From contig CP000068.1 in the NCBI GenBank assembly GCA_000002445.1, positions 1 to 64,000 of the forward strand: 64,000 nucleotides of DNA. Direction: 5' to 3'. Shown here piece by piece: positions 1 through 62,789 of this stretch. A program made the position numbers and the translations under genes. Within the stretch, counting starts at the first letter, position 1. Each line of letters opens with the position of its first letter. This DNA comes from Trypanosoma brucei (Eukaryota). A model generated the notes under the pieces. The model did no database searches. It saw only the letters and a program-made list of their open reading frames with translations, and was not told the DNA's origin.

Positions 1-966
1 GATCCTCCACAGGTCATCGAAAAGCGGTAAAAATTTGGATTGGGTAAAGGAACAAGAACTAAAATTAAATAACGCAACACCTTCCTCCGCCTTTTCTACT
101 TGCTTTTCATTTTCGAAGCTTACGCGAAGTAGACAACAGAGAAAACTCGAAATTAACCTTTTTTAGCTTTTAATAATAAAACTAAAGATTAAGTCTTTGC
201 TACGCAACGCCCCATTATGTGACACGATCATTTACCCGTACGGCGGACAAAAGATAGTAATAACACACCACACGAAAACTGCTATACCAAAATACCAAAA
301 ATGTAACACACGCAGATCACCCACTATGTATACATTTTATTTCTTTTTCACTGTCATGGATAGCGTTTTCACTCCTTCACATCATCCCCACCTGTTTCGG
401 GTCTCACACCAACACAAGAATGTTGCGGCAAGCAATTTGAACCAATGAAACTTTCTAACACATCATGCCATCCAACTAAGAGCAACATAAAACCACATAC
501 GAGAAAGAGACATAGTTTATTAGTATATCACCATATCACGTTAGAAGTGATATACTTCCAACATGAGCATAGCAACACTTTACACTAATTCCCCCTCCCT
601 ATAACAAAAGTTAACACATTTAAAGAAAAATACTTATAAATACTCCTGGTTAAAGGCATAATAATAATAATAATAACTCATCCGCTACTGTTTCTCCAAC
701 AAGTATTGAAACTAAGTTTCCTTGTCTCGTTTATAATCTATTTTTCGATACCCTTCATTACTTGTTTTGTTGTATTTGTGACGTTTTTAATCGTTGCACC
801 ATTCCCTTTACACGATTAATAACCTTAGTCTATTTTCCCCTCTTCCTACTATCCTCTTAATTTTAGGATGCTCACTATTACTTAATTTGAATTATTCGAT
901 CATCTTCTCATGTCTCGCCACAACGCTGCATGCACACACCCCCTGGTGAAAGTAGTTGCAAGTTGG

Positions 967-1383
967 TTACCTATCATCAGCTTTACCTCCATTTTGCACG
1001 GCACTCACCCCATTAGACATTTTCACACTTCTCAACGGACTTGCAACAACGACTTCTGTGAACATATGAGGCTTAAAACTGCAGAGTATCACTGAACAAC
1101 CTTTACCCACCCCGCCGTTCTTCCTTTGAGTACTGTCTTTTCCATAATCCTGCCCATCCTGATTACTTGTTTCCAGCCCCAGCGTATTTCTTTCCTCGAG
1201 CCCCGACATTTCACCCAGTGGCAGCTGCTCTCTAATACCCTCGATGCCATTCCCTGTTAGTTTCCCACTTGGAACTAATTTCTCACCATTCTCCTTTCCC
1301 CTGTCGCTGCCTTCCACAGCTCCCGAATTCTGCTCTTCTTGACTCACTTTCTGTTCCCTGTGGTCAGTTCCCAGGTGTGCCAC
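967..1383 (-). pseudogene. Gly/Glu/Gln-rich low-complexity ORF fragment (138 aa). Possibly a truncated paralogue of the acidic ORF at 12220-13095.
   Basis: The ORF track gives 138 aa with acidic G/E/Q/S-rich composition, like 12220-13095. It lies ~1.5 kb upstream (in the minus sense) of the GPI-protein gene at 2864-3892. The 12220-13095 ORF has the same spacing to 14812-15852. No signal peptide is visible and I could not align the homology by eye. Confidence 0.2.
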
Positions 1384-2863
1384 CGACCCCGAGACTCGGG
1401 GCCTGACAGATGGCTGTTCAACCTGGCCTTCGTTCCTGCCGCCAACTACAGCATCGTTCAGTTGTACGCTTACCGTAAAGAATTTTCTTACAAGTCTGGA
1501 GACGATTAGCCATTTTCACCCTCCGCTGCTGGATCCTGCATTGCATCGATCTCTTTTTCTTGTCAGGTTGTTGACTGCGCTCACGCTTGGCGCCCTACAA
1601 TCGGGAAGTAGGGGAGCTGAAGCAAGGGGTGGACCCGCCCCCTTTTGGCTGCCACCAACCGTAGTCAAACCAGCACCGCCTGCCTCCGCTGGAGGAGTCC
1701 GAGTATCCCTAGCATCTCTTGCTTTTGCTTGTCGCCGGCAATGAAGCTTTCGACTCAGCCAATAGCAAAATCAATATTAGTGTCAAAAATGGGGCTCTTA
1801 TAGGTCTTGGCATTGTTTTCCTTTAAGGTTGCAGCTGAGCAAACTACACAAAACACTACTAACAAAAAGGAAAACATTTTACGTACATATGCGACATCGA
1901 AAGCAATTACAATTGGATTCGGAATTAGAGAAAATAGAAATTTATTAATGTATCACATTTCATTCCGATTGTTTCCTCCCATGAAGAAGCCTCTCAAAAA
2001 CCATGAGGGTCCCTTCTGTTGCTTTCAGTGCCTTTTAACTTAATTTTTGATACACCATTCAGGTGCTTCCTTCACCCACAGCCCTTTTGATCGCCTCTCA
2101 GCTGCCTCACATCATTCCCAACTTTCCATATACCTCGAACTCCAGGGTTACACAAATAAAAATCAACTTAGACAATATGTCTTTTGGTGGCTTCACATTC
2201 CTACCAATTAGATAGAAAACCATACATCTAGTTCTTTCAATATTTTTTTAAATAAAGAATTTATCGGAGTTCACTAGTCTTTTTGTTACCACTTCCTTCA
2301 TCACCTGTAGGTGACTTTGTCGCCAAACCAACACGTTTGAACTTGACCGTAGCTTCAATGGTTTCCTGTATACATAACTATATTTTTGCTCTCCATTCCT
2401 AAATGCTGCAACCAAGCTTCCAAAGAGAGGTCACGCTGTTTCTGCTTCTTATGTTTGAATGGGCTCAATTGTAAGCCTCGTAAGATTCACTTCCTGTGTA
2501 CATTTATAACGCGGTTCTTTTAATATATCTTGTCCTTCCAGATTCCATAATTCCATAACAACAATATTAAAATCTGTATTCGTTCAATCCCAAAAGTTAT
2601 AAAGTTTATTCACTATTTGCTTTTGTTTTCCTTACTGTCGCTTTTACTTTTCCTAACTTTTGTTGTTACTGATAGGTGTGAGCGGATTATTTTATTCTTT
2701 TGAGCATTGTATTTTTCCATTTTATGCAACTTTTTAAACGGGTGTAAAAAAGAAAAATTATTCCTTCCTTTCCTTTACTCTGTTCGCTGGTCTTCTGCGC
2801 TGGTGTTTGGCGTATTTTCCTTATTAAGGGTTAAAAATAAAAATAATTGAATGATGAATAAAT

Positions 2864-3892
2864 TTATGCAAACAGCCAAAATAAAAATATCCGTAGAAAC
2901 TGTAAAATAGTTTTGGACGAACTCTTTTGTTCTTCTGGTGGTCTTGTCGTAGTGGCATCTTTCTCAGAGCTGGTAGTTGCTTGCGCATTTGGGTTTCCAT
3001 CATTTTGTGGTCCTTCTGTCCCCTTAGCTGGTGAGTTATCCCCTGTGCTTGGAACTGTGTTTGGCTTTGGATTTTTTTCCATGCTTGGCTTCCCCTCCGC
3101 ACGTGGTTTTGTGCTTCCACTTGCACTTTCATCCTTGCTCATTTCTTCAACTTCTCTCACCAGATCTTCGAGCTTATTAAGCCATTCAATACCACTTGCG
3201 TTGTCCTCGTTAGATCCCCTTGGGTACAGCACACAAATGCCGTCGTTCTCTGATTCCGCTCCATTGCAAGTATGCAGTCCGTACTCTTTACCTCCCCCGT
3301 AGGTATAGAAATGCTGGCGTCCATCTGAGTTCTTACGTTTCTTTATGCGCATCCTGAATTGAACCTTATTCTCGTGAAATTCAGTTTCTGATGGCACACC
3401 TTTTCCACTTCCAGTTATGCATCTACTCCTCAAGTCGTCCCACGTGCTTCGGTGCTTTTGGGTGGTTGGCCATTCCTGGGAGTTAACTTTTCTTACATTT
3501 CCCGTGTAACAAAGGTCCTTAAGATCTGGTTGCCGGTTTGTTCCCTCGCATAAGCAAATAAGATCTCTTACAAGTGCCTTTCCTCCGTGGGTACGTTGGT
3601 TTCCACTATCTTGGCCACAATCCATCTCCCTGTGAACTTTCCATAACATTTTATTTACGCCATCGACATTTGCTCCAAACAATATATCTTTAGCTTTGAT
3701 TTGAAGAGAAGTTACGTCAACACCTAGTTTTCCCTTCATTCGCTCCAGTAACTCATTTATTTGTTCTGTCAAGCTAACAAATCCGCACAACGTTTGGAAC
3801 TCCTTCACATTAAGTATATCCTGCTCCGCGCTGGACACACAAGTCATTACTAAAGACACGCCCACAATTGATTCCACTGATTTCTTCCACAT
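2864..3892 (-). CDS. Surface-type protein of 342 aa with an N-terminal signal peptide and a C-terminal hydrophobic GPI-signal-like tail. ESAG-like subtelomeric family member, possibly ESAG9-like. Paralogue of 14812-15852.
   Basis: Single 342-aa ORF. The N-terminus MWKKSVESIVGVSLVMTCVSSA is hydrophobic. It has conserved Cys residues, N-glycosylation sequons (NAS, NSQ, NSD) and a Ser/Thr/Pro-rich stalk. The C-terminus is ...TILQFLRIFLFWLFA. Several blocks are shared with 14812-15852: FGGGK..GLHTCNGA..SE.DGICV.YPRG..EDNASGIEWL.KLE.L. The family name is a guess from memory, not from a search. Confidence 0.6.
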   Translation of the reverse strand: MWKKSVESIVGVSLVMTCVSSAEQDILNVKEFQTLCGFVSLTEQINELLERMKGKLGVDVTSLQIKAKDILFGANVDGVNKMLWKVHREMDCGQDSGNQRTHGGKALVRDLICLCEGTNRQPDLKDLCYTGNVRKVNSQEWPTTQKHRSTWDDLRSRCITGSGKGVPSETEFHENKVQFRMRIKKRKNSDGRQHFYTYGGGKEYGLHTCNGAESENDGICVLYPRGSNEDNASGIEWLNKLEDLVREVEEMSKDESASGSTKPRAEGKPSMEKNPKPNTVPSTGDNSPAKGTEGPQNDGNPNAQATTSSEKDATTTRPPEEQKSSSKTILQFLRIFLFWLFA

Positions 3893-5605: not shown

Positions 5606-6856
5606 TCACCTGCGGCCGGCTCCGTTCAACCGCAATGAGAAACTGTGCCAGCCTTTTAGAGAAACATATATCCTGCACACACACACACCTTCTACCGCAA
5701 ACCCGACACGTAACTCCTTCAAACTGGGACAGCTCATCAAGTGCAGCGACGTTTCTTCGCAGTCGCCGCGTTGGCTGGTAACAGCGCGCTCTACCTTCAT
5801 ACCGTGCATCTTCTTTTGATGTAGGGTGAGGCCAGTTTTGCTAGCACACTGCCTTCCGCATGCCGGGCACACCAACATGGATGCGTTTGTATGCGGGGAA
5901 TCAGTGGCACACAATTTTGTGCTTTTGCTGCATTTAAGCTCGACTCCCTCACCTTTGTGGAAAGCCTTACAGTGTCGGATGAGGGAGTCCCTGCAACTGA
6001 GCACTTTTTGGCACACACCACACTGCACCTCGCCTTTCCCCGGGACGTCAACGTTTCCCTCACGGGCACGCTTACGAGGGAATTGCACCAACACCACAAA
6101 GTTACCTCCCTCCGTCACTATGTTCTTATGTTTGAATTTCTTGTGTAGTGACAGGGAAGAGCGTGTATCGAAGCTCGCCTCGCACAGGTCACATTGAAAC
6201 GGCAGCTTCCGTGTATCCTGAGGGGCTGGCGCTGCTGGGACGCTACCATCTCCTTTCACTGAGTCTTCGTTCTCTCGCCCCCTTTTCACGCAGCAACTAC
6301 CGCTACCTATGCCATGTATTGTTTGAAGGCTGTGTAATAGTCGGCCTGGCACTACGAATTTGGAGGTACAGAGGGTACAATGAAGCACCTGCGGTCTCAT
6401 CGGGACTCGTGTGCTCGATGGTAGAGGAACGATCGCCAGCACTGGAGGGGGCTCCGGGGGGATGTCCACTGCAGGTGTTGCATCGCCGTATTTGATCCTC
6501 CTGAGGGCATCAGCTCGCACAAAGCCATGTTTGTTTACCATATGCGTTACAGCACTCGAGCGACATTGGCATGTGGCATCACATTCCGTACATTTGGTCG
6601 GTTCGGAGGTTCTCTGAAGAGTGCGTGTCGCAACAGTTGGGGGCATTCGTATTGTTGGCCCTATCGCTGCATGTTGTGGGTTACACCATCGGCACTGCGG
6701 AGGCACACTCGGGTTGATCTTTCGCAACATCCATCCATAGTGTCTTGAAGATCCAACCCGAAAGCGTGCCAGTGCCGTTTCTTCCTCCCTCGTCAGTTCT
6801 TCTTTATGTTTTGTTGGAAAGTGGTTGCCCGTGATACCAAACCTATGAGTGTTCAC
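5606..6856 (-). pseudogene. ingi ORF segment 3: C-terminal C2H2 zinc-finger domain.
   Basis: 416-aa ORF with repeated C-x2-C...H-x3-5-H motifs: CDLCEASFDTRSSLSLHKKFKH, CGVCQKVLSCRDSLIRHCKAFH and CPACGRQCASKTGLTLHQKKMH. Confidence 0.8.
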
Positions 6857-6862
6857 ATGGAC

Positions 6863-9412
6863 TTATTCCGATCTAAGCACTCGGTTCGCATAAGCAATGA
6901 TGTCGGGGATCCATGTATTTCGCAACTGTGGTAAATCAGCGGCCTTTTTGGCCATGTCATCGCAAACCTCATTCCGTTTCACGCCACAATAGCCAAACAC
7001 AAATTGCAGTCGGATACGTATCTTCCTTCTCTGAACTTGAAGCAGAAGCCTCCATAGTCGTCTTAGAATTGGGTTCGTTACGGCTAGGGGGCCTGTCTGC
7101 AGTGCTGTTAACATTGACAGCGAGTCAGAGAAGATGAACAACCTGCTCGGTGTGCTTCTGTATGCCGGAAGCCATTTCAGCAGCCGTTGCAGTCCTATCT
7201 CTAATGCTACGCATTCCGCTCTGTAACTGCATGAGAGTTCCCCTGCTCCGGTTTTGGGTGCGCAAATCAGCGTGTTGTTTCTATAGAGCAGGGCAGCTGC
7301 TCCGGACTTCTCACCGAGGGACACGGATCCATCAGTCCACAATTCGTAGTGCTCTCGCCGCGGTGGCTCCTTCCCCCTCCGTGCAAAATGCCGTTCAATC
7401 CACTTTTCGGAAGCCTCCCTTTTGAAATCGTCAGGGTCATCAGCGCACACAGGCTTTATCTGCGTGTGAAATAGCGGTCGGCAGCTGTAGCGGAGCGTCG
7501 ATGTCTCTAGTGGGTGCTCGCGTGGTTCAATGCGGAGGTGGGAGTAGGACCGCATGATGCGGGAATGTAGGGCTCTGACTGGATGTTTGCTGTGATATAC
7601 TTCTTCAGCACTGCGCCGCAAACATCCGCCTCGTGACTCACACATCAGCATGAATTTCATACTGCGCACAAGAGTGGTTGTCTTGAGTGGCAGGAGGTTT
7701 GCTTCCGGCAGAGAGTCCTCTTTGCGCGTCCCATGCGGTATGCCGGCTATGATGCGACTGACTTTGTGTTGTGCTGCTGCAAGGAGGTCGAGACTTTGTT
7801 CCGAAGCGTCCCAGTACCATACCTCAATGCCATACATGGTGTGTGCCTGTACGAGTGCTAGATAAAAAGCTCTCAGTACTTGTCGTCTTGGCCCCCATGT
7901 AGAAGCTGAGATGGCTGCTATCTGCAGTAGTCTGAAGTCCATCTTGCGTCTCGTTTCGGCCGCATGTGTTGCCATCCCCTGCAGACACTGGAATGTTACT
8001 CCTAGAAGCTTCGGTGTCCTGTCAGCTCCTATTCTTTCGCCGTCCAGTTGCAATGTAAGGGGGTGGCGCTCTATACACCCGAAGAGTGTGCACTTTGTTT
8101 TCGCTACATTGACAGACATGAAGTACTCTTGTGACCACTGTAACACCACGTTGAGACCGCACTGTAGTGTGTGGTTGATGACATCCCTCTCTGTGTCCCT
8201 CGCAAGTAGCGTCGGGTCGTCTGCAAAGAATCCGTGCTGCAGTAACGGCACTTCTGCAAGGCGTTGGCTCAACGAGTTCATGGCAATAATGAACATGATT
8301 GGGCCAATGACAGTTCCTTGTGGCACTCCTCGCTCAAATGTTCTGCTTCTGGAAAGCTTCTCCTTGAATCTCACTCTGCCAGTTCGGTTACTCAGAAATG
8401 ATAGGCACCACTTCACAATGTGGGGTGATACCTTCATTCTGTGCATTTCCCTCGCAATTTTGTCGTGGTCTACTGTATCGAATGCCTTCTCGTAGTCAAC
8501 AAATACAGCACCCGTACGATATTGGTGCGCGGGACGGCAGAGGGCAGCGCGGACGTGCAGGAGTTGTTCGAGCGTTGAGCATCCGGGGCGAAAGCCTGAC
8601 TGCTGCGGCGTCAGCTGGGACTCAACAGTGTCTCTAAGCCTCGCGGCAATTATGCGCTCCATGACTTTGCAGAGACAGCTCGTGAGCGTCACAGGCCTGT
8701 AAGAATCGAGGTCCTCCGCCTTTTTTCCGGCCTTCAGGATGGGGATGATAACACCAGTCTTCCATGCAGGCGGCACGACTCCCGTTCGTAGGCCCTCATT
8801 GAATAGCCTCAGAACAACATTCAGCGCTGTTCTGCCGAGATGTTGCAGTGCCTCGTTGTATAAGCAATCAGGTCCGGCTGCGGATCCACTCGGTAGCAGT
8901 TTGATCGATCTCCGTAGTTCAGCCATCGTGATGGGACTGAACTCACTCGCTATCGTCTTTATTGGTGCCGGTGGGTGTGAGTCGGGGTTCCTTCTTGCGC
9001 GGGACGAGTACAGTTTACTGAACCTCTCAGCTTGACGGTAGTCCGTGATGGCCGCGTTATCAACAAGTACAGCCGGTGTGGTTAGTGGTCGTGGCGCATA
9101 TACTTTCTTGACAATGTGCCAACTGCAGCGGTCTGACACCGCAAGTCTGGAGCATAGCGTGCTCCATCTCTTCTTTGTGGTACGGTCCAGGATCTGCTTA
9201 CGCGTGGCTACCAACTTTTTCCTTCGGTGGGAGGGTCCGCATCCAGCTATCTCTTCATCGAGTTTCGCGAGCTCAGGTGTCCAATGTGGTGGCGTTGCTC
9301 TGCAGCCACGGGGGACGGAGACCTTCGTCGCAACGCGGATGGCGGAGCACAATTTCTGTTCCGGGGTGTTGACGTTCTTCCCTCTACCAATTTTTCCTGC
9401 AGGGCTCGTCAA
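6863..9412 (-). pseudogene. ingi ORF segment 2: reverse transcriptase and RNase H.
   Basis: 849-aa ORF. RT motifs PQGTVIGPIMF and HGFFADDPTLLA (YXDD-type). An RNase H-like motif ELWTDGSVSLGEKSGAAALL lies near the C-terminus. A stop at 6860-6862 separates it from the next segment. Confidence 0.85.
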
Positions 9413-10358
9413 TCTTGTGACGGAAATTCCTCCAGTTAGCTTTTAGCCATGCGTACATGGGCTTTCGAAGCCGCGGGCAACTCAGTGCATCTGTGTCGTC
9501 TCCAACGATAACTTCGAAAAATATGTTATGGTGATCGCTATCGGGAGAATACAGCGATGTCCACGTGTACACTGTGCAATTCCTTGACAGTGTCACATCA
9601 GGGGTGGACTCTCCGTGGTGGCGCGCGTACCTGGTGCACTCACCGGTGTTGCAGACCAGAAACTGGTTGTCAATGCACCACTGTGTGAGGGTTTCACCCT
9701 TGGTATTTGGTGGGCTCGCGCGATCCCATGCCAACGCGTGTGCGTTAGCGTCTGCACCGATGAGCTGGGCACCGTCAGTCGTCAGAAGCGTATCTAGGTC
9801 AGTTGCCGTGAAGGTGTGTTTTGGTGGGATGTATGCCGACGTGACAGTCAGCGCCGCTCCACGTGCAAGGTAAATTGTTGCATGCACTTGTTCAATGCGA
9901 CCAACAACGGCCATACCGGTCTCGACTGGTAGGTCCTCCCTCACTAGTATTGATACACCACCTCCTTTGCAGTTACGAGCTATTCCGTGATGTTGGTAGC
10001 CAGCAACACTAAAGCAAACCGCCTCTCCAGGTGTCATCCTTGTCTCGCTCAACAGAAAAAAGTTAATCCGCTCATCAACAAGGGTTTTGTGGAGTGCTAA
10101 TCTCTTTCCTTGAGATAGCCCGGCGCAGTTACACTGCATCCCGCGCAATAACTGGCTGAGATTCTCTTCCACATCACCGGACAGCAGCATCTTAGTGCGG
10201 ATGATGCTGCTGATGGCACGCTGGCACGTGCCCAGGGACCGACAAATGAAAAACGGTGTCCCAGCAAGACGCTGCTGATCCCTGTGCTGTATGATGCCGT
10301 AGCCGGAGCAAAGCAGTGTTCCCCATGAAAGGAACGCTGCTGGCTCTTGGCTTCCCAA
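9384..10358 (-). pseudogene. ingi ORF segment 1: AP-endonuclease (APE-like) domain.
   Basis: 324-aa ORF at the 5' end of the element. It overlaps the next segment at 9384-9412 in a different frame, so there is a frameshift. Confidence 0.75.
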
Positions 10359-10418: not shown

Positions 10419-12219
10419 CACAATGGATAGGATTACCATTAGCAATAGATTAAGAGAAATTTTATTGTGCATACCACTCTCTCATAAACACAAGAACGGC
10501 TGCACTCAAACACCGGTATAATTTTTCCTTAGTGAGAAAATGAAAAAATGGCCCCCTTTATCTAAACAAAGGGCTAGAAGACGCCGAAGAAGGAAAGACA
10601 AGGTATTGGCTGAAATATAGTTAAAATAAAATCACACAATGACTCCAAGGTGGTACAAGCTGTGAGACACTACATGGTCTCAATATTACTTTTTATGAGA
10701 AAAGAGACACACAAGTGTATAGAAATACAATGCTTCCCTGAAAAAGCATTTGCGGTCAAACATAAGTGTTTCCTGCGGAACAAAAAACTATTGCCGTGAC
10801 ATATTGCCTGCTGTAGAATAACAGAACACGTAATAGTAAACCCCACTTCCTATTTACCGCTAACATTCAATGCATTCTGCCAAATTCTCGCTTCCATCTC
10901 TTTATGTCGGTTGGTAAATGGCAACGCACTGTAATCACACAAATACCTCGAACGCATGGTTTTTTTCTTGAAATCATGAAATTCGCCGCAACCATCACTC
11001 TTCACAGATTTCACGATACCCCGCCAGGATCCTCTTCATCCTCGCATGTCGCTGCGAGCTAAAACGTTTGCAACCGAAGAGATTATTTTGTGGAAAGCGA
11101 ACTACTTCAGATTCTTATTATCATGTAAACGAATGAGAAATCAACTTCTTGAAAAATAAACAAAAGCTTTGAAAACCGTTCAACAGAAATAGAGAAATAA
11201 TAACCAAAACTTGCCTCTTATCAGTGCTAAACATTGACATCCGCTTATATTCAATTAATCAAAGAGATAAAAGTCCATAGTGCATTTACTAAAGCACCTT
11301 CCTTTTGCGGTTGCATCACTACTACTATTATCTCTATGTTTCACTGTTCAGGGCATGTGAGGGTCAACTCCGCGAACTCAAGCGCGAATTGCCCTGTTAA
11401 TTAAATAGGTTGTGGATAACCTTTTGCAAAAACAATTAAATCAAATACGCACCGTGAGAATCTTTGAAGAAGTTATGTTTTTTAAAATTAATTGCAGCTC
11501 ATTTCGGGTACTGCCTAAAGCAACCCCCATCGCTTTCCATACACTTACCTGCTTTTGCGACTATTATCAATTTATTCAAGTCTTCGACGTATCTGTACCC
11601 TGTGCGATTCTCTCACTCATTGAATGCTTACTGTTTCAATGACTTATGCCCTCATTATTTGCACCAATTAAAATTCTTTTTTTATGATTACCGATAGAAC
11701 CCTAAATTTAGTTACCGCAATCGTCTGCGTTTTCCTCATTTAAGTTAATGATCTAAATAAGTCCTGCTTTAAACCATTTTCGCTCTCTTAGAAATGTGCC
11801 TTCTTCTAGGCACGGGGCAGCTCTTTATAATTTTTAGAACGCAAAAAAAAATAGTTCACTGAAGAAGATCTCTCCAACACCGTTAAAATTTTAGATTCTT
11901 TGCCTTATCAACGGTCCTGTGGAACTGTCCATGGTTTTTTTGATACTTGTGATCTCATTAATGGTATTCTTTACGCACTCAAAACCTTTAAGTTACGTTC
12001 CCTCCCTTCTGTCTTTTCGTTTTACCTTTTCATTTTACTCATGATTAGGGCAGAGTCGTTCATCCCTGTTATAGCATTCCCCTTTAAAGTGTTATTTCGT
12101 TAAAACACCACAAAAATTTTGTTCTCGTAAAAGAAGTTGTTAATTGGTTACTGTTTCCCATTCGAACCCGTGTCATACTTTTCTGATCTCATTAGATAGT
12201 TGCGTAGTTATGCACGGTC

Positions 12220-13095
12220 CTAGACCAACAAGCGTTGAACGCATATGAAGCTTAATGTTGCGGTGATTAACATCACGTGCCTTTTGTGCGCTGTGGTTCT
12301 CCCCACTTGTGTACTGTTTGCTTCTTGCTCCAGGTCATCCAGATCCTTTCGTGTCTCTTTTTGTGCATTTTCTTTCACAGTGCCCAAAATCACCCTCTGT
12401 GCTGGCGGCCACTTCATGTTGCTCTCTCCTTCCTTTGCTACTTGCAGTGGTGCTACATCCCCTCCTTGGTTCTGGCCTTCATCCCCGCTCCCGGGGTTTC
12501 TTTGTTCACCCTCGGCCATTTGTTTTACTTGCCCTTCCGCTTGTCCGCTCCATAACTCAGTAGTCCTTTGTTGCCCTTCATCTGAGGACGGCTCAGCTGA
12601 TCCTTCGTTCCCTCCGCGAATTGCGGTACCACTTGCTCTACCAACTTGTCTTTCACCATTTATAGTGGCACTCAAAGCGTCAAATGATGGCTGACGAGAA
12701 GCGATTGAACGCAAGTCTAGGCCTCCTCTCTCTTCATGTTGGGTAGCGACCTCGTCGCCGCTTCTCAGGCTGCTTTCTGGCTTCTTCGCTGGAGCAGGTG
12801 CTGGTGGAAGCGCCCGCTGGACTGTACTGCTCTGAGGTGCAAGGGGGGATCCGCACATCTCCTTTCCATTGGAATACCATATTTCGTTGCATTTACCGCC
12901 TTCGGACGACACCGATACCGAGGTTCCACGAGACAAAGCGATTGCATTACTTGTTGTCAGTGCCAAAAAGAGGGGTGCTGTGACCTTGAACATCGTTTCT
13001 CTTATATTGCTGCTGCACAAACTGAGGGGGAAATCATCACTAAAAACACGTAAGAGATTCATTATCCCTACTGTACCAAGTAGATAGAGGGGCAT
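12220..13095 (-). CDS. Hypothetical acidic, low-complexity secreted protein (291 aa) with signal-peptide-like and C-terminal hydrophobic ends.
   Basis: The 291-aa ORF is long for its surroundings. N-terminus MPLYLLGTVGIMNLLRVF is hydrophobic. The core is S/E/G/Q-rich and probably disordered. C-terminus is ...HVMLITATLSFICVQRLLV. Same strand and spacing relative to the GPI-protein gene as in the other repeat unit. Confidence 0.45.
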   Translation of the reverse strand: MPLYLLGTVGIMNLLRVFSDDFPLSLCSSNIRETMFKVTAPLFLALTTSNAIALSRGTSVSVSSEGGKCNEIWYSNGKEMCGSPLAPQSSTVQRALPPAPAPAKKPESSLRSGDEVATQHEERGGLDLRSIASRQPSFDALSATINGERQVGRASGTAIRGGNEGSAEPSSDEGQQRTTELWSGQAEGQVKQMAEGEQRNPGSGDEGQNQGGDVAPLQVAKEGESNMKWPPAQRVILGTVKENAQKETRKDLDDLEQEANSTQVGRTTAHKRHVMLITATLSFICVQRLLV

Positions 13096-14811: not shown

Positions 14812-15852
14812 TTATATAAATGACAGCAAAAATAGCGTTACGGGCCTGGAAGCGACTATGGTGCAACTCCTCTGCTCTTCGGGTGGTCTTTTAGTATTGT
14901 TGGTCATGTCGCTGGTTGTAGCTGTGGTATTTCTTTGCGCGTTTGGCCTTTCATTTTGTGTTGATCCGTCTGTTCTGGCAGTTGTGTGTGGACCTTCAGT
15001 TTTGCTCGGTGTCGACCTATCTGATTTTTCCTTTTTGCTAGTTTCTTTAGTTTGTGGATGTGCATTGCTATATGCTCGTTCTTCAACTGTCGCAACTTCG
15101 CTCCTCAGGGTTTCCAGCTTACTGAGCCATTCAATACCGCTTGCATTGTCTTCATCAGTTCCCCTTGGATACATCACACAAATTCCGTCACTCTCTGTCG
15201 CGGCCCCGTTGCAAGTATGTAGTCCTCTATCTTTACCTCCCCCAAAGATATAGTGGTGTTCCCGTCCACTTGTGTCCGTATACCTCCTTACACGCTCCTT
15301 GAGTTGCTTTTTCTTCTCTTGAAATTCAGCCACCGTTGGCATGCCTTCCCTTAACCCTGTATCGCATTTACTTTGCATAGTTTTCCACAATTTTTCATGG
15401 CCTTCTCCGTTTCTCCACCTTGCAGAGCCAGTTTGCTTGACGTTTCCCGCGTAGCAAATAATCTTAATCGTTGACTTTTGGTCGTTTCCATCACATAGGC
15501 AAACAAGATCTTTCACAAGTGACTTTCCAGCCGGGGCGGCTGCAAGGCCATTACCCCGTCCACAATCCAGATCTCTGTACAGATTCCATGTCAATTTACT
15601 TACATCACTTATTCCCGTTCCAAACAAAATTTCATTGACCTTCTTTTTCAGAGGGTCCATATTCGGCCCTGATGTTCCTTCCATTTTTCCCAATAGCTCA
15701 TTTATTCGCTCTGTCAACCTAACAAATCCGCACAACATTTTAAACTCCTCCATGTTGACTATGCTTTCTTCTGCAGTGGATACGTCCACCACCGCAAAGA
15801 CTAACGCTACCGTATATCTCACCGACTCCGACCACATTTTCACCTCTACCAC
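14812..15852 (-). CDS. Surface-type protein of 346 aa with signal peptide and GPI-signal-like C-terminus. Paralogue of 2864-3892 (ESAG-like family).
   Basis: 346-aa ORF. N-terminus has hydrophobic stretch SVRYTVALVFAVVDVSTA. Shares conserved Cys and motif blocks with 2864-3892: YIFGGGKDRGLHTCNGAATESDGICVMYPRGTDEDNASGIEWLSKLETL. Has a Ser/Thr-rich stalk and the tail RPVTLFLLSFI. About 350 bp of upstream flank (15853-16210) is also homologous to 3893-4300. Confidence 0.6.
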   Translation of the reverse strand: MVEVKMWSESVRYTVALVFAVVDVSTAEESIVNMEEFKMLCGFVRLTERINELLGKMEGTSGPNMDPLKKKVNEILFGTGISDVSKLTWNLYRDLDCGRGNGLAAAPAGKSLVKDLVCLCDGNDQKSTIKIICYAGNVKQTGSARWRNGEGHEKLWKTMQSKCDTGLREGMPTVAEFQEKKKQLKERVRRYTDTSGREHHYIFGGGKDRGLHTCNGAATESDGICVMYPRGTDEDNASGIEWLSKLETLRSEVATVEERAYSNAHPQTKETSKKEKSDRSTPSKTEGPHTTARTDGSTQNERPNAQRNTTATTSDMTNNTKRPPEEQRSCTIVASRPVTLFLLSFI

Positions 15853-18800
15853 TATTTAAATTACTCTCCTTAAAAACCACAAAAATTTAGGTCACAAACC
15901 TTCCATTTTGCAAACTTCAAAATTGTAAACGTAGCACACTCGGCGACATTTCTACAACGCAGGTTCTACTCCTATTATAGGCACTTTGAATTAAGGAGAA
16001 AGCGATGCTCCTCGTTAATGTAGTATTTCCTGTGCTGTGGAGTGTGTGCCATCAACACATTGCAGCACACAGACCGTACAAACTCCTTGGTATGGTGGCG
16101 CGAAGGCTAGTTCCCGATCCATTCGTACGACTTTGGTAACCACTCTGCTGGGTTTCAGGGGGCTCTCAAATATCTGCCGCTATGGCAGTGCCATTGAACT
16201 TTAGTCAAAAGAACTCCGACGTTTCTCCACAAGAACCGAATTTGGAAATGCGACACCACGTGAAACATCTGCATCTGTTGGGGTGGCATCTTCCTCTCGC
16301 ACAACGGAAGCACCAGCATAGATGAGAATTTTCTCGGTTACAAGAAGGAAATAAGTTATTCTCCTACTGAAAACAACCTTTTAACGTCACTCACCCCAAG
16401 CCAAAAGCAACCGCGAAATTCTTCGAGACCTGGCAAATAAGCATATTATACGGATCCTCTTCCCACTTGCCAGGGTGTGTACTTTCCTCGATCTCATGGA
16501 TTCCATGCGGAGCACCCTTACCCATGGAAAAGCTTGCTGCCGCATAACAGTTTCTGTTACATCCTGACTACACTAAACACAGGCTCAACGAATAAGTGTG
16601 AACCTCCAGAACGATAATGTCGACTTTTGACACTTGAGGAAAAGGCCTGCAATGCTTGTTTTCTTGAATTGGGCTGACTTCCCGCTTTCCGATGCATATT
16701 TGTACCGAGACGAAGAGCACCGTATGCGCCGTTCATCAACGATAACTGGAGCCACAATCGATATTCCTTTATCCCTCTGTGGCTAACCGAAAGTGCTTGT
16801 CGTCGCCACCAGTGCTGCTCTTAGTAGGTTTTTTTTCCGCAATATCGGGTCCCTACGCGGGAAGTTAATTCTCCCAACAATTCAGTTGAGAAGCTACAGT
16901 GTATGCATTGTAGTGAACACGTTACTGTATTCCTCTCATTTCCTGGGAGAGTTAAGCATGTCGTTGTTCCGCAGCTTCGTATTCCATTACTTGTCCTTTC
17001 ACCGGTATCACACATTCCTTTACCGTTGTTAATGGGTCTCGGGGGCACCGTACTGTCCTGTATCAGCTCCTGCTGTATCGCTGGGAATTCTTCTGGACTC
17101 AACCTGGAACCACCGATCCTCTATTTCACTTCGCAACTGCATGTAGTGGTGCCATTATTGCAACCTATATTTTTCCGTTAGTTCCACATTACTGTGCTTC
17201 GCATTGAACCAACATACCCATTTGACTTTTTTGCGCTGTGAGCACAAGCAATGGTTTACATCAGTGTGTTGGTCCACAATGTATTACGAGGCCTACCCTC
17301 TTTCGCATAATATAAATGCACAAATTCTACATTTATTCGCGTCTTCTCCATGATTATCAGTAGCATCAATTTCATAAGAAAGATTCACAGATTTGACTAG
17401 CGTGTGCCACCACAGTATAATCTTAAGTAATTCCACAAGCACTTTTAGGCGCAATGCCGCATATCGTACAAATTGTTGATTTTGCAAAGATATCGTTGAT
17501 TTCTCTTCTTCTCTTTCTCTCTGTGCTCACCCCCTCGTGTGGATCATAGTGGCATTTAGCAGTATCATATGCATCTCTCTTCTAATTTGTGCACGGTCAG
17601 CTGATATTATTATATATATAGTATTTTGGAGAGTCGCTCAGGCAGTAGTTTAGGAACCACCAGCAGTTGCGTTCTGGATTCCATGTTACTAAGTGATTTG
17701 TTATTGTAAATACCATGAGTTAGCTGAGAGTTCCAGACACAATACGACATGCTCTACCTTGCATCCTTGCTATGACTCTTGCTCTTTTCTTTTCGCCTCA
17801 TAGTATCACATCTCAATTTTGCATGTGACAGTGTGAGGTATAAGCACAAAGTGGCATGCTTGAAGTGAATTTTTGCTTGTCGCTCACTAATGTTGGTAGC
17901 CCAATGAGAGATGTGGTAGTCATGCGCTTCCAACATTTCATATGCCCATTATGTGCCATCGGAATCCCTTCCACAGTAACACGATAACAGGGTATACCTC
18001 AGGGTTCCTATCCTCTCCTCCACGTGAATGCCACCAAGCCCTAAAATCAGGAATATCCTTGAAGAAGTATCCCATTCAGAATGTATCCTTTATTGTCTCC
18101 ATAATAAGTCGTATTCGCTTTTGTAGTGAGACCTGTTTATGGATAAATTTTCCAGAAGCGTCTCGTTGTTGTTGTTGTTGTTTTCGCTCCGCCGTAGAGC
18201 AGTGCAAAGTTGTACGGTGGCACCTGCAAAAGCGATCAGTTATTCGTGTCCGCTGGTTCGTTGATGTTTGGGTCGCCACAGCTACCTTACAATTTCATAA
18301 TATCTCTCTTTATCCTGGTTTCTACAAACCACTTTCTTCTAACTGTCATTCAGATAAACTCGGTGCAGCATATCACTTTTTTTTCGTGTACGAAATCGCG
18401 CTTCAACCACATTTTTCTCTACCATATGCGCTACGGGGCCATCGTGTATTTGAGAGCCTGCATTGTTCCCACTTGCAAAGTCGCGAATGGTCTTCTGGTA
18501 TTAGCTCAACTGTTCCTTACAACTTTCCTTTTCATACTGTTTCACGTTGTTGGAAGTTTCCTGTTACATTCACAAAAACGTCATCACAGCTGCCAACGAA
18601 TAACGTGTAATGAAACCTATGTGCCTTTGGTGTTAAGGTACACATGCAATCAATTCTACGTCGTCTGTGGCAGAACATATTAATACATTGCAGTATATTT
18701 GCTCAATCAACCTTGATGTTTTCCCCACGTTCCTCCGGGATTAGCCACGCACGGTTTTTCACCTTTTATATCTTTTGGAAAGACGCGGATTGGGAAAAAA

Positions 18801-25864: not shown

Positions 25865-26680
25865 ATGCTTAAAATTGCAGCAGTCATTTTTTTGACGCTG
25901 AGGACGTGTAACCCCAGTGTTGTTTTCACACGACAACCGGACGTGCAGGTCACATATGGAGACGAAGGGCCGAGAGAGTACTTCGCTCCTACAGCAGAAC
26001 AGTTGGCACGGGGAAAGATAACTCCAAAACACGAAACTCAGCCGATGGTGGGACCTTTGACCCATGGCAGTATACCCGATGAAAGGAGTGAAGGAGGTGA
26101 AAGTGAGAATAAAAGTAGTGAAAAAGTCAGCCCTAAGGCAAGCGATCTTGAGAACGAGGATGGTACAGTGGTTGAAGTATTACACCAACCAGAGGCGAGT
26201 GGGGCACCTGTTGTTGCAGGTGAGGAAAGCACATATAGATCAGCACAAAAGTCAGAAAGAACAAAAAAACAACATGGCGAGGACGATGAGGGCAAAGGAG
26301 GGAAGAACAGAGAGGATATTTTAGGAATACAAGCAAAAAATCGTAACTACAGCCATGATGCACATCCTGCACCACGAGGTGCAGTCTCGGTGGTTAACCA
26401 AGGAAGCACACAAGGGGTGAAAACCGTGAGCAAACGATCAGTCGATGAGGAAGGAAAGGAGATTTCGCAGCAGCAAACGTCGAGGCAGTATGAAAGCTAC
26501 GTAGCGTTGCCACTGCGAAACGGAATGTCCGAGCATGAAGTGAGTAGACCTTCAGAGGTGGCCTTGGACGATGTGGGTGAACCCTCGTCCTTAAGTGAAA
26601 GTGTACCGAGGGGAAACGGTGCGAGTCGCAAAAGGTATGCGATATTACTCTACGCAGGATTAAGTGTTGTGTTCTCCTGA
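25865..26680 (+). CDS. Hypothetical acidic Ser/Glu/Gly-rich protein (271 aa) with N-terminal signal peptide and C-terminal hydrophobic (GPI-like) tail.
   Basis: 271-aa ORF standing alone in an otherwise ORF-poor 19-kb stretch. N-terminus MLKIAAVIFLTLRTCNPSVVF. C-terminus ...RYAILLYAGLSVVFS. Low-complexity acidic core. No recognised domain. Confidence 0.35.
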   Translation: MLKIAAVIFLTLRTCNPSVVFTRQPDVQVTYGDEGPREYFAPTAEQLARGKITPKHETQPMVGPLTHGSIPDERSEGGESENKSSEKVSPKASDLENEDGTVVEVLHQPEASGAPVVAGEESTYRSAQKSERTKKQHGEDDEGKGGKNREDILGIQAKNRNYSHDAHPAPRGAVSVVNQGSTQGVKTVSKRSVDEEGKEISQQQTSRQYESYVALPLRNGMSEHEVSRPSEVALDDVGEPSSLSESVPRGNGASRKRYAILLYAGLSVVFS

Positions 26681-29600
26681 AAATCATTGCCTTGCGCTGA
26701 TACATAGGCATACAACCAATGAATAAAGTGAGAGTTTGTCGAGGTAGAACTAAGGGTAAGAATAGGTGACTAAGCTGCTACTTTTTCCACCAAAGGGCAT
26801 GTGTATGTAGCTTTGTGCTGACACATGATAAAAGGATCGAATAACTCCAATATAATTATAAATAGGTTACAGAAGTGGAGCGAGTGACTGGAAGAGGGGA
26901 AAAGTAAATCAATGTCCTTCATTGTATAAGCAAAAGGTCACCAGTATTTGAAGTGACACAAATGCAAACCAGAAAACGGTGAACGCCCGTAAGAAAATTG
27001 GCCATGAGAATAGTGAACTTAACCTCAATGCTACTGAGGAAATAGTGGGTGATTTATTTTTTAAGATATGTAACGGGAACTGGTTGGCACCCAGAGGGAA
27101 ACGCACCATGAAGAAAATGGGTAAGGTCTCGGTGAAAGGTGTGGCGGCATCACAAACTTAAAATGTGATGGCAACACAAAATTCCTCGACCACCAAATTG
27201 GAAATCGTATCTGTGAATATTTAAGTATTTTTTAGACAGTGCTTGTTACGAGTAACACATAAAGACATAAATGATTTAATCGAGCAACGAATGGGTTGGC
27301 GAACTGCTGAGGGTACAGTTATATAAAGATCCTTAACTGATTGAGAAAAATTTGCTAAATCAGGCAATTCTTAAAAAGATATGAAGGACTGTTAAAGCGA
27401 TGCTTGACGGTATACGATGAATTATCTAAGGTAAACTACCAAAACGGGTACCCCTAGTGTGTGTACTTGTTGTGTTTTTTTTTTTTAAGCTTGTTGTTGC
27501 GGTCTATTTATCTAAACGAAGAGTGTACACTTTCTGCAATCAGTTTTCGAAGTAATTACCTTTTCAGCACAGAAACAATAACAAACAATAGTGATGCGAC
27601 TGCAAAATGGGGGATTTTGGTAAATTTGGTACGAGCACTCGTTTTTTATCTCCATGGTTAGTTGTGTGTTCGTGTATTTAAGCAAAGCTTGGCTGTAATA
27701 GGAACCAAGACTTGGATTTTGTTTTCTTTCTTGTAACTATGAATCTTTTACTTTGAATGCTATACATTTTCTAAATGTTGTTGCGTTAATAGGAAGTTGA
27801 AGTATTCCGCTTACTCCAGAGGGAAAAAACCGGCTGCTATACGGTTTAGATGGTGGTGTTTGATGATGCTGAGAAATAGATTGGAGCATTGTGGATGCTA
27901 AGCTGCCACGTGGCCGCATTTATTACCGTTCAATTTTTAGACGTGCGTGGCGTTCGTCCGTTCCTCAAATTTGATAAGGGATACGCGTTGTTCTTTGGGA
28001 ACGTGGTTTCCAACGACGAGACGCAGGTAAGGAAATAGTGAAACAGGCTGACTTTAGGTGGTGATTTTTTTCCATAAAATAAAAAGGTTGACTTTTGTCA
28101 GTGAACTTGTTATTGCGCGCTATTGTTTCCCACCGAACCAAAAAAGAACGGAGATATTTCTGCAGACTCCCCAGCGACGCGTCCATGGGATTACTATGAT
28201 GACAGTAGTTGGCGGACGGCGGATGTATTGTGCATTACGCTGTAAAGCAATTACTGTTTTTCCACTTCAACACATTTCTTGCGGACGATATCATAGGTGG
28301 TTGGTTTTCCATTTCTGTATGAGTTACAGGTTGCTGCTATCACTTTGAAACCGCTAGAATCACGAGGGAAATGTCATTTTTGTATTGCACTTACATTCAA
28401 AACCAATTGGGCAGCGCTTTGAAGGCAGTGAAGTAGCGTATGGAAATATTTGCGTATTGGTGGTTCTTTAACGTATGAGTGTTACGTTCCTAACGGTGAT
28501 GGAAAAAAAATTAACATATGAATGTGTGTTCAATAATAATTATTATTAAATGCCAAGTTCTCTTACTTTCTGTATCAAACAGTGAGTCTTTTTTTTTATT
28601 TTAATCTCACTTTTTCAAATGCGTATCGAGGTTTAGGAGGCACAATGTTGCTTAAAACTCAACTCTCACGAAAATGACACAAATTAAGGGAAGCCTCTAT
28701 CGCACCCACCATTTCCATGTGTGCAACAGTAAGCGAGTCATCGTAACAATTTTTTTTTGCGCGTGTGAAGTGTGAAATCCTCATGAGAACTCAAAATTCA
28801 CCACAATAATACTCATTATGCAAGGTGCTTTGAGTGGGGAAGGCGGCGCAGACTCAAATATCCAAAACAATTTATTTTCCCATATGGCGGAGCGAACGGA
28901 AGCTGTAGTGAAACACACACTGCAAAGCGAGAAAAGTATATCTCCTAGTGTCGACACTCTCCAACGATGTGAGCACAAAACCCTTCATTTACGAACAGGA
29001 GGCTTCAGTTTGTTTATTTGTTTGTTTGTTTTTGAATCCATTCCTCACATCAGCGTCCAAAATTTAATACAGGGAATTCAGAACCTTTATCATGACCATT
29101 ATTGTTGTGTCTTGTGAGAAGGTACATATTTTATGATAGGAACTTACTGGGCACCAGCAGCCAACAAAGAAATACGAAAGAACACAACAGTGATAAACAT
29201 ATATTACCTTGAAGCTACATGTGTACGTTTGCACGGAATTAGCTCAGTGATGTTTGCGAACTCAGAGAATGAGGAAAAGCGACAGTCAGATGAAATGAAT
29301 AAAATACCAAATGTCGTGGATCAATTAATATGTTTGAAAATAGAGTCTCATGCTGTATAGTCCTTGGAGGCATGAAAATAGATTTAATAACGCTAAGGCG
29401 TGACGGTGTTGAGGCATGTGTTTTTCAACATGCGTTGAAAGGGGTGGGAAATGTCAGTGAATACCTGAGGAAGCGCCAAAACTATTTTTTTTTTTAATGG
29501 CCACAAAATGCTGCAGTGGAGCAGTGTGGAAATAATTTCATTGGATAGAAAACTGTGTGTGGAAAGCTTATTAAAATTATTTGAAATTTATAACTGTTCT

Positions 29601-60774: not shown

Positions 60775-60897
60775 TATGCTCTTATGTTTGAATTTCTGGT
60801 GTAGTGACAGGGAAGAGCGTGTACCGAAGCTCGCCTCGCACAGGTCACATTGAAACGGCAGCTTCCGTGTATCCTGAGGGACTGGCGCTGCTGGGGC

Positions 60898-62493: not shown

Positions 62494-62789
62494 GGTGTGT
62501 GCCTGTACGAGTGCTAGATAAAAAGCTCTCAGTACTTGTCGTCTTGGCCCCCATGTAGAAGCTGAGATGGCTGCTATCTACAGTAGTCTGAAGTCCATCT
62601 TGCGTCTTGTTTCGGCCGCATGTGTTGCCATCCCCTGCAGACACTGGAATGTTACTCCTAGAAGCTTCGGTGTCCTGTCAGCTCCTATTCTTTCGCCGTC
62701 CAGTTGTAATGTAAGTGGGTGGCGCTCTATACACCCGAAGAGTGTGCACTTTGTTTTCGCTACGTTGACAGACATGAAGTACTCTTTTG

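What the first reader, a model, noticed from the sequence alone, without database searches (positions are those of the whole stretch)
12220..13095. Acidic low-complexity ORFs with secretory termini (12220-13095 minus strand, and 25865-26680 plus strand)
These are 291- and 271-aa ORFs with hydrophobic N- and C-termini and long disordered S/E/G/Q-rich cores. They are not recognisable as any family I know. ORFs of this length are unlikely by chance in this AT-rich context. Hydrophobic segments at both ends are even less likely by chance. They could be secreted or GPI-anchored mucin-like proteins, or rapidly evolving pseudogene remnants. The fragment at 967-1383 may be a third member.
Basis: inference. 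Interest (0 to 1): 0.5.

Follow-up and report, generated by a model that had tools for sequence, protein, structure and literature searches.

The report
Known ESAG9 genes of Trypanosoma brucei
The two open reading frames are real but already annotated and studied: both belong to the ESAG9 family of Trypanosoma brucei (Tb927.5.120 and Tb927.5.150), disordered glycoproteins of the secretory pathway switched on in the transmissible "stumpy" blood stage, and the third fragment is a decayed copy of the same family.

Summary
The window is bases 1-64000 of T. brucei TREU927 chromosome 5, a VSG array with ingi retroelements. Published coordinates for Tb927.5.150 (25865-26680, forward) and Tb927.5.140 match window ORFs exactly.

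- **ORF1, 12220-13095 (-):** this is XP_844698.1, "ESAG protein, putative", which I assign to Tb927.5.120 (GRESAG9). An exhaustive HMMER search finds seven relatives (E 9e-39 to 4e-9). Six of the seven are named ESAG9 or ESAG; all that carry an organism name are T. brucei or T. equiperdum.
- **Published work on ORF1:** it is up 3.9-fold in stumpy forms. Its C-terminal tail drives GPI anchoring of a reporter, and its NST site is N-glycosylated.
- **ORF2:** UniProt names it ESAG9, and it is listed under surface-phylome Family 2. It is a divergent relative that lacks the two family cysteines (profile E 4e-5; hhalign 92.6%).
- **Fragment 967-1383:** this is the C-terminal half of an ESAG9 pseudogene, about 1813 to 1055 (-), E 9e-10.

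The descriptors need correction. The proteins are only mildly acidic (pI 5.6). They are not low-complexity by entropy, have no repeats, and are not mucin-like. ORF1 probably starts at Met35. The family's function remains unknown. Verdict: already known, low interest.

The parts
12220..13095 (-). [quoted passage not shown] I assign it to Tb927.5.120 (GRESAG9).
   Evidence: The sequence is an exact match in the protein collection. The window equals Tb927_05 1-64000. The ID follows from accession numbering: XP_844698 and XP_844701 are three apart, as are .120 and .150. An ESAG9 profile built only from external proteins scores it at E 8e-56. HMMER relatives range from E 9e-39 to 4e-9.
12220..12993 (-). 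Probable true CDS of ORF1, starting at Met35 (257 aa).
   Evidence: All HMMER alignments start at query residues 32-52, with the best at residue 1-2 of the relative. Five of the seven relatives start at the column of Met35. ORF2's Met1 aligns to Met35. A TTTCCCCCTCAG...CAGCAG tract lies between Met1 and Met35 and could be a splice acceptor; that last point is inference.
12925..12993 (-). Signal peptide MFKVTAPLFLALTTSNAIALSRG.
   Evidence: Translation. The N-terminal block is conserved in alignment A1. No signal-peptide predictor was available.
12853..12891 (-). Family cysteine motif CNEIWYSNGKEMC, holding the two invariant Cys of ESAG9.
   Evidence: C35 and C47 are invariant columns in A1. 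Translation.
12310..12318 (-). Conserved N-glycosylation sequon NST, within the family motif ENSTQ.
   Evidence: The reporter carrying this segment shifts on PNGase F treatment (PMC11298655).
12223..12309 (-). C-terminal GPI-insertion region QVGRTTAHKRHVMLITATLSFICVQRLLV. The exact omega site was not determined here.
   Evidence: Hydropathy. The block is conserved in the family. The GPI signal of Tb927.5.120 made sfGFP releasable by GPI-PLC (PMC11298655).
25865..26680 (+). ORF2, 271 aa: Tb927.5.150, XP_844701.1 / Q57XH1. NCBI calls it 'hypothetical protein, conserved'; UniProt calls it 'ESAG9 protein'. It is a divergent ESAG9-like gene without the cysteine pair.
   Evidence: Published coordinates are identical. 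Names. Relatives are 93% and 51-52% identical. External ESAG9 profile gives E 4e-5. hhalign of A1 against A2 gives 92.6%, E 4.5e-7.
25865..25930 (+). ORF2 signal peptide MLKIAAVIFLTLRTCNPSVVFT.
   Evidence: It matches ESAG9 profile positions 1-19.
26321..26422 (+). Core block shared with ESAG9: ...HPAPRGAVSVVNQGSTQGVK against the family's PPxRRAVSxxEQENTQE.
   Evidence: hhalign aligned region and hmmsearch domain 2.
26627..26677 (+). ORF2 basic motif plus hydrophobic C-terminal tail RKRYAILLYAGLSVVFS, a candidate GPI signal.
   Evidence: Aligns to the family's KRHAVILSAVLSLLS (domain 3). Hydropathy. GPI addition has not been tested for this protein.
1055..1813 (-). ESAG9 pseudogene. It comprises a signal peptide (ATG at 1813), an in-frame stop at 1709-1711, a degenerate Cys motif (1598-1708), a frameshift, and a C-terminal half (1078-1515). 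The 3' end at about 1055 is approximate.
   Evidence: Collinear profile hits: HMM 7-27 (E 0.068), 39-62 (E 2.8) and 123-253 (E 8.7e-10). tblastn of the ESAG9 protein P0011, aa 114-254, gives E 2e-10. Translations.
669..985 (-). 3' flank of the pseudogene, homologous to the proximal 3' flank of ORF2 (26751-27061).
   Evidence: 63% identity over 319 nt, E 6e-24.
26751..27061 (+). Proximal 3' flank (putative 3'UTR) of ORF2, shared with the pseudogene locus.

Best explanation
**What they are.** The two ORFs are the annotated T. brucei TREU927 chromosome-5 genes Tb927.5.120 (GRESAG9) and Tb927.5.150. Both belong to the Trypanozoon-specific ESAG9 family, cell-surface phylome Family 2. The fragment at 967-1383 is the tail of a third, decayed ESAG9 copy.

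**Protein architecture.**
- An N-terminal signal peptide takes the protein into the ER.
- A short two-cysteine motif follows; it is present in ORF1 and lost in ORF2.
- The polar core of about 200 residues is fast-evolving and probably disordered.
- The family alignment including ORF1 has a conserved NST glycosylation site; ORF2 has other sequons (NKS, NYS).
- The protein ends in a basic motif and a short hydrophobic tail. For Tb927.5.120 this tail is a working GPI-insertion signal.

**Regulation (from the literature).** Slender bloodstream forms repress the mRNAs through 3'UTR elements and the RNA-binding protein REG9.1. Stumpy forms, the transmission stage, de-repress them. The protein is reported in the ER or released from the cell.

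**Status of each step.**
- Shown here: identity, family membership and architecture.
- Taken from published experiments: GPI anchoring, N-glycosylation and expression pattern.
- Inferred: an extracellular role in chronic infection or tsetse transmission, which is still unproven in the field.
For: **Identity**
- Tb927.5.150 is published at Tb927_05 25865-26680 forward and Tb927.5.140 at 17942-18610 forward. Both equal window ORFs.
- The exact protein sequences are XP_844698.1 ('ESAG protein, putative') and XP_844701.1 / Q57XH1 ('ESAG9 protein').
- The surroundings are VSG genes and ingi elements.

**Family membership**
- An exhaustive HMMER search with ORF1 gave only eight cluster representatives, including itself, with relatives at E 9e-39 to 4e-9. 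Six of the seven relatives are named ESAG9 or ESAG; every one with an organism name is T. brucei or T. equiperdum.
- Alignment A1 shows a signal peptide, two invariant Cys, ENSTQ, and KRH plus a hydrophobic tail.
- A profile built from the seven external ESAG9 proteins, run on the six-frame translation of the window, scores ORF1 at 8e-56, the pseudogene at 8.7e-10 and ORF2 at 4e-5. Nothing else scores below E 0.6.
- hhalign of the ORF1 family against the ORF2 family gives 92.6%, E 4.5e-7.
- The three loci share collinear DNA similarity in the 5'UTR and signal peptide, the C-terminus and the 3' flank.

**Published experiments**
- All eight annotated ESAG9 genes are up in stumpy forms, with Tb927.5.120 at 3.86-fold (PMC2771046).
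- Tb927.5.150 is tagged 'Family 2' and rises by logFC 1.45 on REG9.1 RNAi (PMC5380359 Table S2).
- ESAG9 belongs to Family 2 and is absent from T. congolense and T. vivax.
- The GPI signal of Tb927.5.120 confers GPI-PLC-releasable anchoring, and its sequon is N-glycosylated (PMC11298655).

**Disorder**
- AlphaFold2 pLDDT is 44.6 and 39.4, with helices only at the termini.
Against: - ORF1 and ORF2 are not significantly similar by direct BLASTP (E 0.8). ORF2 lacks both invariant cysteines. Its link to ESAG9 therefore rests on profile-level scores and on database and paper labels.
- ORF2 evolves almost neutrally against its T. equiperdum copy: dN/dS is 0.76, and CDS identity (96.45%) is no higher than flank identity (96.0%). 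Protein-level function of ORF2 is thus not demonstrated.
- Codon-position periodicity is weak for both ORFs (p 0.05-0.09).
- The gene ID Tb927.5.120 for ORF1 is inferred from accession numbering and description. I did not find a published coordinate for it.
- No protein-level evidence was retrieved for either native protein. The key ESAG9 papers (Barnwell 2010, Monk 2013) were not held.
Confidence: 0.92

Rival explanations
1. ORF2 (Tb927.5.150) is a transcribed but functionally decaying ESAG9-like copy. Its intact reading frame is a recent leftover and is not maintained by selection.
For: - dN/dS is 0.76, and the CDS is no more conserved than its flanks against the T. equiperdum copy.
- The family's two invariant cysteines are lost.
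- A near-identical sequence occurs as two short proteins of 136 and 117 aa, matching the N- and C-terminal parts of ORF2. That suggests a broken chromosome-9 paralogue.
- A decayed copy lies in the same window.
- Codon periodicity is weak.
Against: - The 816-nt frame is intact in both T. brucei and T. equiperdum despite 29 substitutions.
- The same architecture is kept in paralogues only 51-52% identical (266 aa).
- The transcript is detectable and co-regulated with ESAG9 on REG9.1 knock-down.
- dN/dS near 1 is common in fast-evolving parasite surface families.
Confidence: 0.15
2. They are mucin-like, heavily O-glycosylated coat proteins.
For: Signal peptide, polar unstructured core and GPI-type tail.
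Against: - S+T is only 16-17% and P 5-6%, similar to a VSG.
- There are no tandem repeats.
- Sequence entropy is normal.
- The glycosylation documented for ORF1's C-terminal segment is N-linked.
- GRESAG9 is described as a non-surface GPI protein located in the ER.
Confidence: 0.03
3. They are chance ORFs in non-coding subtelomeric DNA.
For: Codon-position periodicity is only marginal. There is no Pfam domain.
Against: - None of 100 simulations gave an ORF of 250 aa or more.
- Homologues exist with conserved architecture.
- Expression and reporter experiments have been published.
Confidence: 0.01

Closest known systems
ESAG9 / GRESAG9 family of Trypanosoma brucei (cell-surface phylome Family 2), e.g. 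ESAG9-EQ Tb927.5.4620
   Same: ORF1 shares full-length homology, the signal peptide, the two-Cys motif, the ENSTQ sequon and the KRH plus hydrophobic GPI tail. It also shares the subtelomeric, non-expression-site location and the stumpy-enriched mRNA. ORF2 shares the two ends, one core motif and REG9.1-dependent regulation.
   Different: ORF2 and its 266-271-aa relatives lack both conserved cysteines and are detectable only at profile level. The annotated ORF1 carries a 34-residue N-terminal extension absent from relatives. The third copy is a pseudogene.
MASP (mucin-associated surface proteins) of Trypanosoma cruzi
   Same: From my own knowledge, both families have conserved signal-peptide and GPI-signal ends flanking a hypervariable core. 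I also recall that Barnwell et al. 2010 reported weak ESAG9-MASP similarity. Here the DNA of the three ESAG9 loci is conserved at the ends, including the UTRs, and divergent in the core.
   Different: The exhaustive HMMER search with ORF1 returned no T. cruzi protein. Homology to MASP was therefore not reproduced here.
VSG and other GPI-anchored surface proteins of the same array
   Same: Same genomic neighbourhood, a signal peptide, and a C-terminal GPI signal.
   Different: There is no VSG_B, Trypan_glycop or Trypan_glycop_C domain. No folded domain is predicted. The proteins are much shorter.

Membership tests
ESAG9 (ORF1, 12220-13095 -) | Significant full-length sequence homology to proteins named ESAG9 | tested here: met
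   phmmer over 1.84 billion representatives gave seven relatives, E 9e-39 to 4e-9. Six are named ESAG9 or ESAG. An external ESAG9 profile scores ORF1 at E 8e-56 over HMM positions 1-261.
ESAG9 (ORF1) | N-terminal signal peptide, two conserved cysteines, and the conserved ENSTQ N-glycosylation sequon | tested here: met
   Alignment A1 has invariant C35 and C47, the conserved N-terminal hydrophobic block and ENSTQ. No signal-peptide predictor was available.
ESAG9 (ORF1) | C-terminal GPI-insertion signal | not testable with these tools
   The hydrophobic tail is present. The published experiment used the Tb927.5.120 signal, which gave GPI-PLC-releasable sfGFP (PMC11298655). No GPI predictor was available here.
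ESAG9 (ORF1) | Stumpy-form-enriched mRNA | not testable with these tools
   From the literature: Tb927.5.120 is up 3.86-fold in stumpy bloodstream forms (PMC2771046).
ESAG9 (ORF2, 25865-26680 +) | Significant sequence homology to ESAG9 proteins | tested here: met
   The match is weak but consistent. External profile: E 4e-5, three collinear segments. hhalign: 92.6%, E 4.5e-7. tblastn with P0012: E 0.001. Direct BLASTP against ORF1 is not significant. UniProt names it ESAG9 and the REG9.1 paper lists it as Family 2.
ESAG9 (ORF2) | Two conserved cysteines after the signal peptide | tested here: not met
   The only Cys is at position 15, inside the signal peptide. The region REYFAPTAEQLARG sits where the motif would be (my reading). 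ORF2 is therefore filed as a divergent ESAG9-like branch, not a canonical member.
ESAG9 (ORF2) | Co-regulation with ESAG9 through REG9.1 | not testable with these tools
   From the literature: logFC 1.45 on REG9.1 RNAi, adjusted P 0.011 (PMC5380359 Table S2).
ESAG9 (fragment 967-1383 and upstream to 1813, -) | Homology to ESAG9 together with an intact reading frame | tested here: not met
   Homology is met: E 8.7e-10 for HMM 123-253 and tblastn with P0011 at E 2e-10. The frame is broken by an in-frame stop at 1709-1711, a frameshift and loss of the normal stop. It is therefore a pseudogene of the family.
ESAG9 (all three) | Restriction to the T. brucei group (Trypanozoon) | tested here: met
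   Every hit with an organism name, among 1.84 billion representatives, is T. brucei or T. equiperdum. The literature reports absence from T. congolense and T. vivax.
Mucin-like proteins | Ser/Thr/Pro-rich tandem repeats | tested here: not met
   S+T is 16-17% and P 5-6%. There are no tandem repeats in the ORFs.
T. cruzi MASP | Detectable sequence homology to MASP proteins | tested here: not met
   No T. cruzi protein appeared among the HMMER hits with ORF1 and there was no Pfam hit. Only the architecture is analogous.

The most novel reading that the evidence does not exclude
ORF2 and its Cys-less relatives of 266-271 aa may form a distinct sub-family. On this reading they keep only the ESAG9 'ends' (5'UTR and signal peptide, GPI tail and 3'UTR), while the core has been replaced or has diverged beyond recognition. 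ESAG9 genes would then evolve by end-anchored recombination, as MASP-type families do. The shared blocks in the 3' flanks (26751-27061 with 669-985, and 27589-27849 with 11059-11321) would carry the stumpy-specific regulatory signals.
Probability: 0.2. Interest if true: 0.3.

Novelty: already known. Interest (0 to 1): 0.08.

Why it matters
ESAG9 matters because it is one of the most strongly stumpy-enriched, T. brucei-specific gene families, and its function in chronic infection or transmission is still unknown. This window adds no new kind of gene. Both ORFs are annotated, named, and used in published experiments. The modest additions are these:
- Evidence that the annotated start of Tb927.5.120 is probably 34 codons too far upstream.
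- A profile-level link between the Cys-less Tb927.5.150 clade and canonical ESAG9.
- Delineation of an ESAG9 pseudogene at 1813-1055.
- Conserved 3'-flank blocks that could be checked against the known ESAG9 3'UTR regulatory element.

Tried and rejected
- **Pfam.** Scans of the three ORFs and of all eight aligned family members matched no family.
- **Solved structures.** A PDB profile search found nothing at E up to 1.
- **Direct BLASTP.** Comparisons among the three ORFs were not significant, E 0.8 to 3.7. Profiles were needed.
- **Word-indexed search.** With ORF1 it found only the protein itself. The exhaustive HMMER search was required.
- **AlphaFold2.** Both models had pLDDT below 45, so no fold search was run; it would have been meaningless.
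- **Codon statistics.** The null windows probably contain VSG pseudogene debris. I do not rely on this test.
- **Contig look-up.** The chromosome-9 split copy P0005 was not on record, so no dN/dS could be computed against it.
- **Papers not held.** Barnwell et al. 2010 and Monk et al. 2013 could not be read. I therefore could not map the published 34-nt 3'UTR element onto the window, nor cite their glycosylation and release data directly.
- **Rejected readings.** Chance ORFs, mucin-like repeats and VSG fragments.

Full report
**1. Where the window comes from.**
Pfam scans of the long ORFs show A- and B-type VSG domains. They also show two ingi-type non-LTR retroelements with endonuclease, reverse transcriptase, RNase H and C2H2 finger domains. 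This is a Trypanosoma brucei subtelomeric VSG array. Table S2 of PMC5380359 lists Tb927.5.150 at Tb927_05 25865-26680 forward and Tb927.5.140 at 17942-18610 forward. Both are identical to window ORF coordinates. The window is therefore bases 1-64000 of TREU927 chromosome 5.

**2. Checking the observation.**
The third is 138 aa, starts with GTG, and lies at 967-1383 (-).
- None of 100 first-order Markov simulations of the window produced an ATG-ORF of 250 aa or more; the longest was 220 aa.
- Both ends are hydrophobic and the cores are polar.
- The proteins are only mildly acidic: pI 5.6, core net charge -8 and -12.
- They are not low-complexity. Twelve-residue entropy is 2.92-2.95 bits, against 2.91 for a VSG and 2.98 for the ingi reverse transcriptase.
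- There are no tandem repeats in the ORFs.
- AlphaFold2 finds no fold: pLDDT 44.6 and 39.4, with helices only at the termini. This fits disorder, but the alignments had only eight and four sequences.
- Codon-position periodicity is marginal, p 0.05-0.09.

**3. Identity of ORF1.**
[quoted passage not shown] XP_844701.1 is Tb927.5.150 and lies three accession numbers later, so ORF1 should be Tb927.5.120. That ID is inferred, but it agrees with papers that call Tb927.5.120 ESAG9 or GRESAG9.
- An exhaustive phmmer search of 1.84 billion representatives returned only eight proteins, including ORF1 itself. The relatives score E 9e-39 to 4e-9.
- Six of the seven relatives are named ESAG9 or ESAG. Every one that carries an organism name is from T. 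brucei or T. equiperdum.
- The alignment (A1) shows the family layout: signal peptide, two invariant cysteines (C-x2-[YF]W-x-P-x-G-x3-4-C), a variable polar core, the motif PPxRRAVS..EQENTQE, the sequon ENSTQ, and finally KRH followed by a hydrophobic tail of about 13 residues.
- All alignments begin at ORF1 Met35, and five of the seven relatives start at that column.
- A pyrimidine tract followed by AG dinucleotides lies between Met1 and Met35.
- I therefore think the real start is 12993 and that the annotated 34-residue extension is an artefact. This is inference.

**4. Identity of ORF2.**
ORF2 is XP_844701.1 / Q57XH1. NCBI calls it 'hypothetical protein, conserved'; UniProt calls it 'ESAG9 protein'.
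- Its relatives are a 93% identical T. equiperdum protein and two 266-aa proteins at 51-52% identity, one of which is Tb09.v4.0151.
- Two short proteins of 136 and 117 aa, each over 90% identical to the N- and C-terminal parts of ORF2, also occur. They look like a broken chromosome-9 copy.
- Direct BLASTP against ORF1 is not significant.
- I built a profile from the seven external ESAG9 proteins only and ran it on all 2099 six-frame segments of the window. ORF2 scored E 4e-5 in three collinear pieces: signal peptide, core motif and C-terminal tail.
- hhalign of the two family alignments gives 92.6%, E 4.5e-7.
- ORF2 lacks both family cysteines.
- I conclude that it is a divergent ESAG9-like branch. 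The REG9.1 paper places it in Family 2, which is the family containing ESAG9.

**5. The third fragment.**
The same profile scores the frame holding 967-1383 at E 8.7e-10 over HMM positions 123-253. The ESAG9 protein P0011 matches 1476-1078 at E 2e-10.
- Upstream, collinear weaker hits recover a signal peptide, MPRPIRAPFLTLILILLLAESKAS, with its ATG at 1813.
- An in-frame stop follows at 1709-1711.
- After it comes a degenerate cysteine motif, RRCWFDYGWWQPKGGGSTPC. A frameshift then leads into the C-terminal half.
- The normal stop is lost, so the frame runs on to 970.
- The 3' flank at 985-669 is 63% identical to ORF2's proximal 3' flank, E 6e-24.

This is an ESAG9 pseudogene.

**6. How it works.**
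I take the following from published work.
- All eight annotated ESAG9 genes are up-regulated in stumpy forms, with Tb927.5.120 at 3.86-fold (PMC2771046).
- The family is regulated through its 3'UTR and repressed by REG9.1. Tb927.5.150 rises by logFC 1.45 on REG9.1 RNAi (PMC5380359).
- The proteins appear to be secreted, and their function is unknown (PMC5617986).
- The C-terminal signal of Tb927.5.120 was fused to sfGFP. The fusion became GPI-PLC-releasable, and its NST site was N-glycosylated. The native protein is described there as a non-surface GPI-anchored protein of the ER (PMC11298655).

The mechanism I commit to has five steps:
- ER entry through the signal peptide.
- N-glycosylation.
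- GPI addition at the C-terminus.
- Post-transcriptional repression in slender forms.
- Expression in stumpy forms, with an extracellular or interface role that remains inferred.

**7. Evolution.**
Against its T. equiperdum copy, ORF2 has dN/dS 0.76. Its CDS identity (96.45%) equals its flank identity (96.0%). Constraint is therefore weak, which leaves room for the rival that ORF2 is decaying.

The three loci are conserved at their ends, including the UTRs, and divergent in the core. From my own knowledge this resembles MASP-type families. No T. cruzi homologue was detected.

**8. Verdict.**
It is wrong that the family is unknown. These are already annotated and experimentally used ESAG9 genes. 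Novelty: already known. Interest: low.

Noticed in passing
window 17942-18610 (+): Tb927.5.140, annotated 'hypothetical protein, conserved' (222 aa), is basic (pI 9.4) and rich in S, F and C. It has no Pfam hit and shows no codon-position periodicity (p 0.46). It may not be a real protein-coding gene, although a transcript signal is listed.
   Followed up: partly
window 11059-11321 and 27589-27849: A block of about 260 nt lies some 900-1160 nt downstream of the stop codon of both ORF1 and ORF2. The two copies are collinear and 60% identical (E 6e-9), and the block occurs nowhere else in the window. It could be shared intergenic or regulatory sequence. The 1057-nt 'long' ESAG9 3' flank was reported to repress more strongly than the 400-nt form.
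   Followed up: partly
window 5606-10358 (-) and 60265-63872 (-): Two ingi-type non-LTR retrotransposons carry endonuclease, RVT_1, RNase H and C2H2 finger domains. The first is split over three ORFs, so its frame is broken. The second runs towards the window end.
   Followed up: no
window 2864-3892 (-), 14812-15852 (-), 36319-37110, 39520-40743, 50401-51924, 54856-55323, 58596-59825 (+): The VSG array contains truncated B-type N-domains on the minus strand, A-type fragments, an isolated C-terminal domain and a B-type ORF on the plus strand, and one apparently complete A-type VSG (507 aa, with N- and C-domains). Gene orientation switches between about 15.9 and 17.9 kb, and GC skew changes sign near 24 kb.
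   Followed up: no
window 25808-25909; protein P0009: The annotated 14-residue N-terminal extension of the ESAG9 protein P0009 aligns to the DNA upstream of ORF2's ATG (E 0.002). The 5'UTR is therefore conserved across ESAG9 loci. Over-long start-codon calls seem to recur in this family, as in ORF1.
   Followed up: partly
L001 2843-3184 (T. equiperdum contig CZPT02001040.1): The end of the T. equiperdum contig matches window 27961-28304 a second time at 89.6%, in addition to the collinear match. This points to a local duplication or an assembly artefact downstream of the ORF2 orthologue.
   Followed up: no
proteins P0004 and P0005 (T. brucei TREU927, 3.06-Mb record): Two short proteins (136 and 117 aa) match the N- and C-terminal parts of ORF2 at 94% and 91% identity. 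They probably derive from a paralogue broken by a frameshift or stop. P0004's length fits Tb927.9.730 (354 nt). The older IDs Tb09.142.0370 and Tb09.142.0380, 'ESAG9-like', are reported up in stumpy forms, but my mapping of those IDs to these proteins is inferred.
   Followed up: partly
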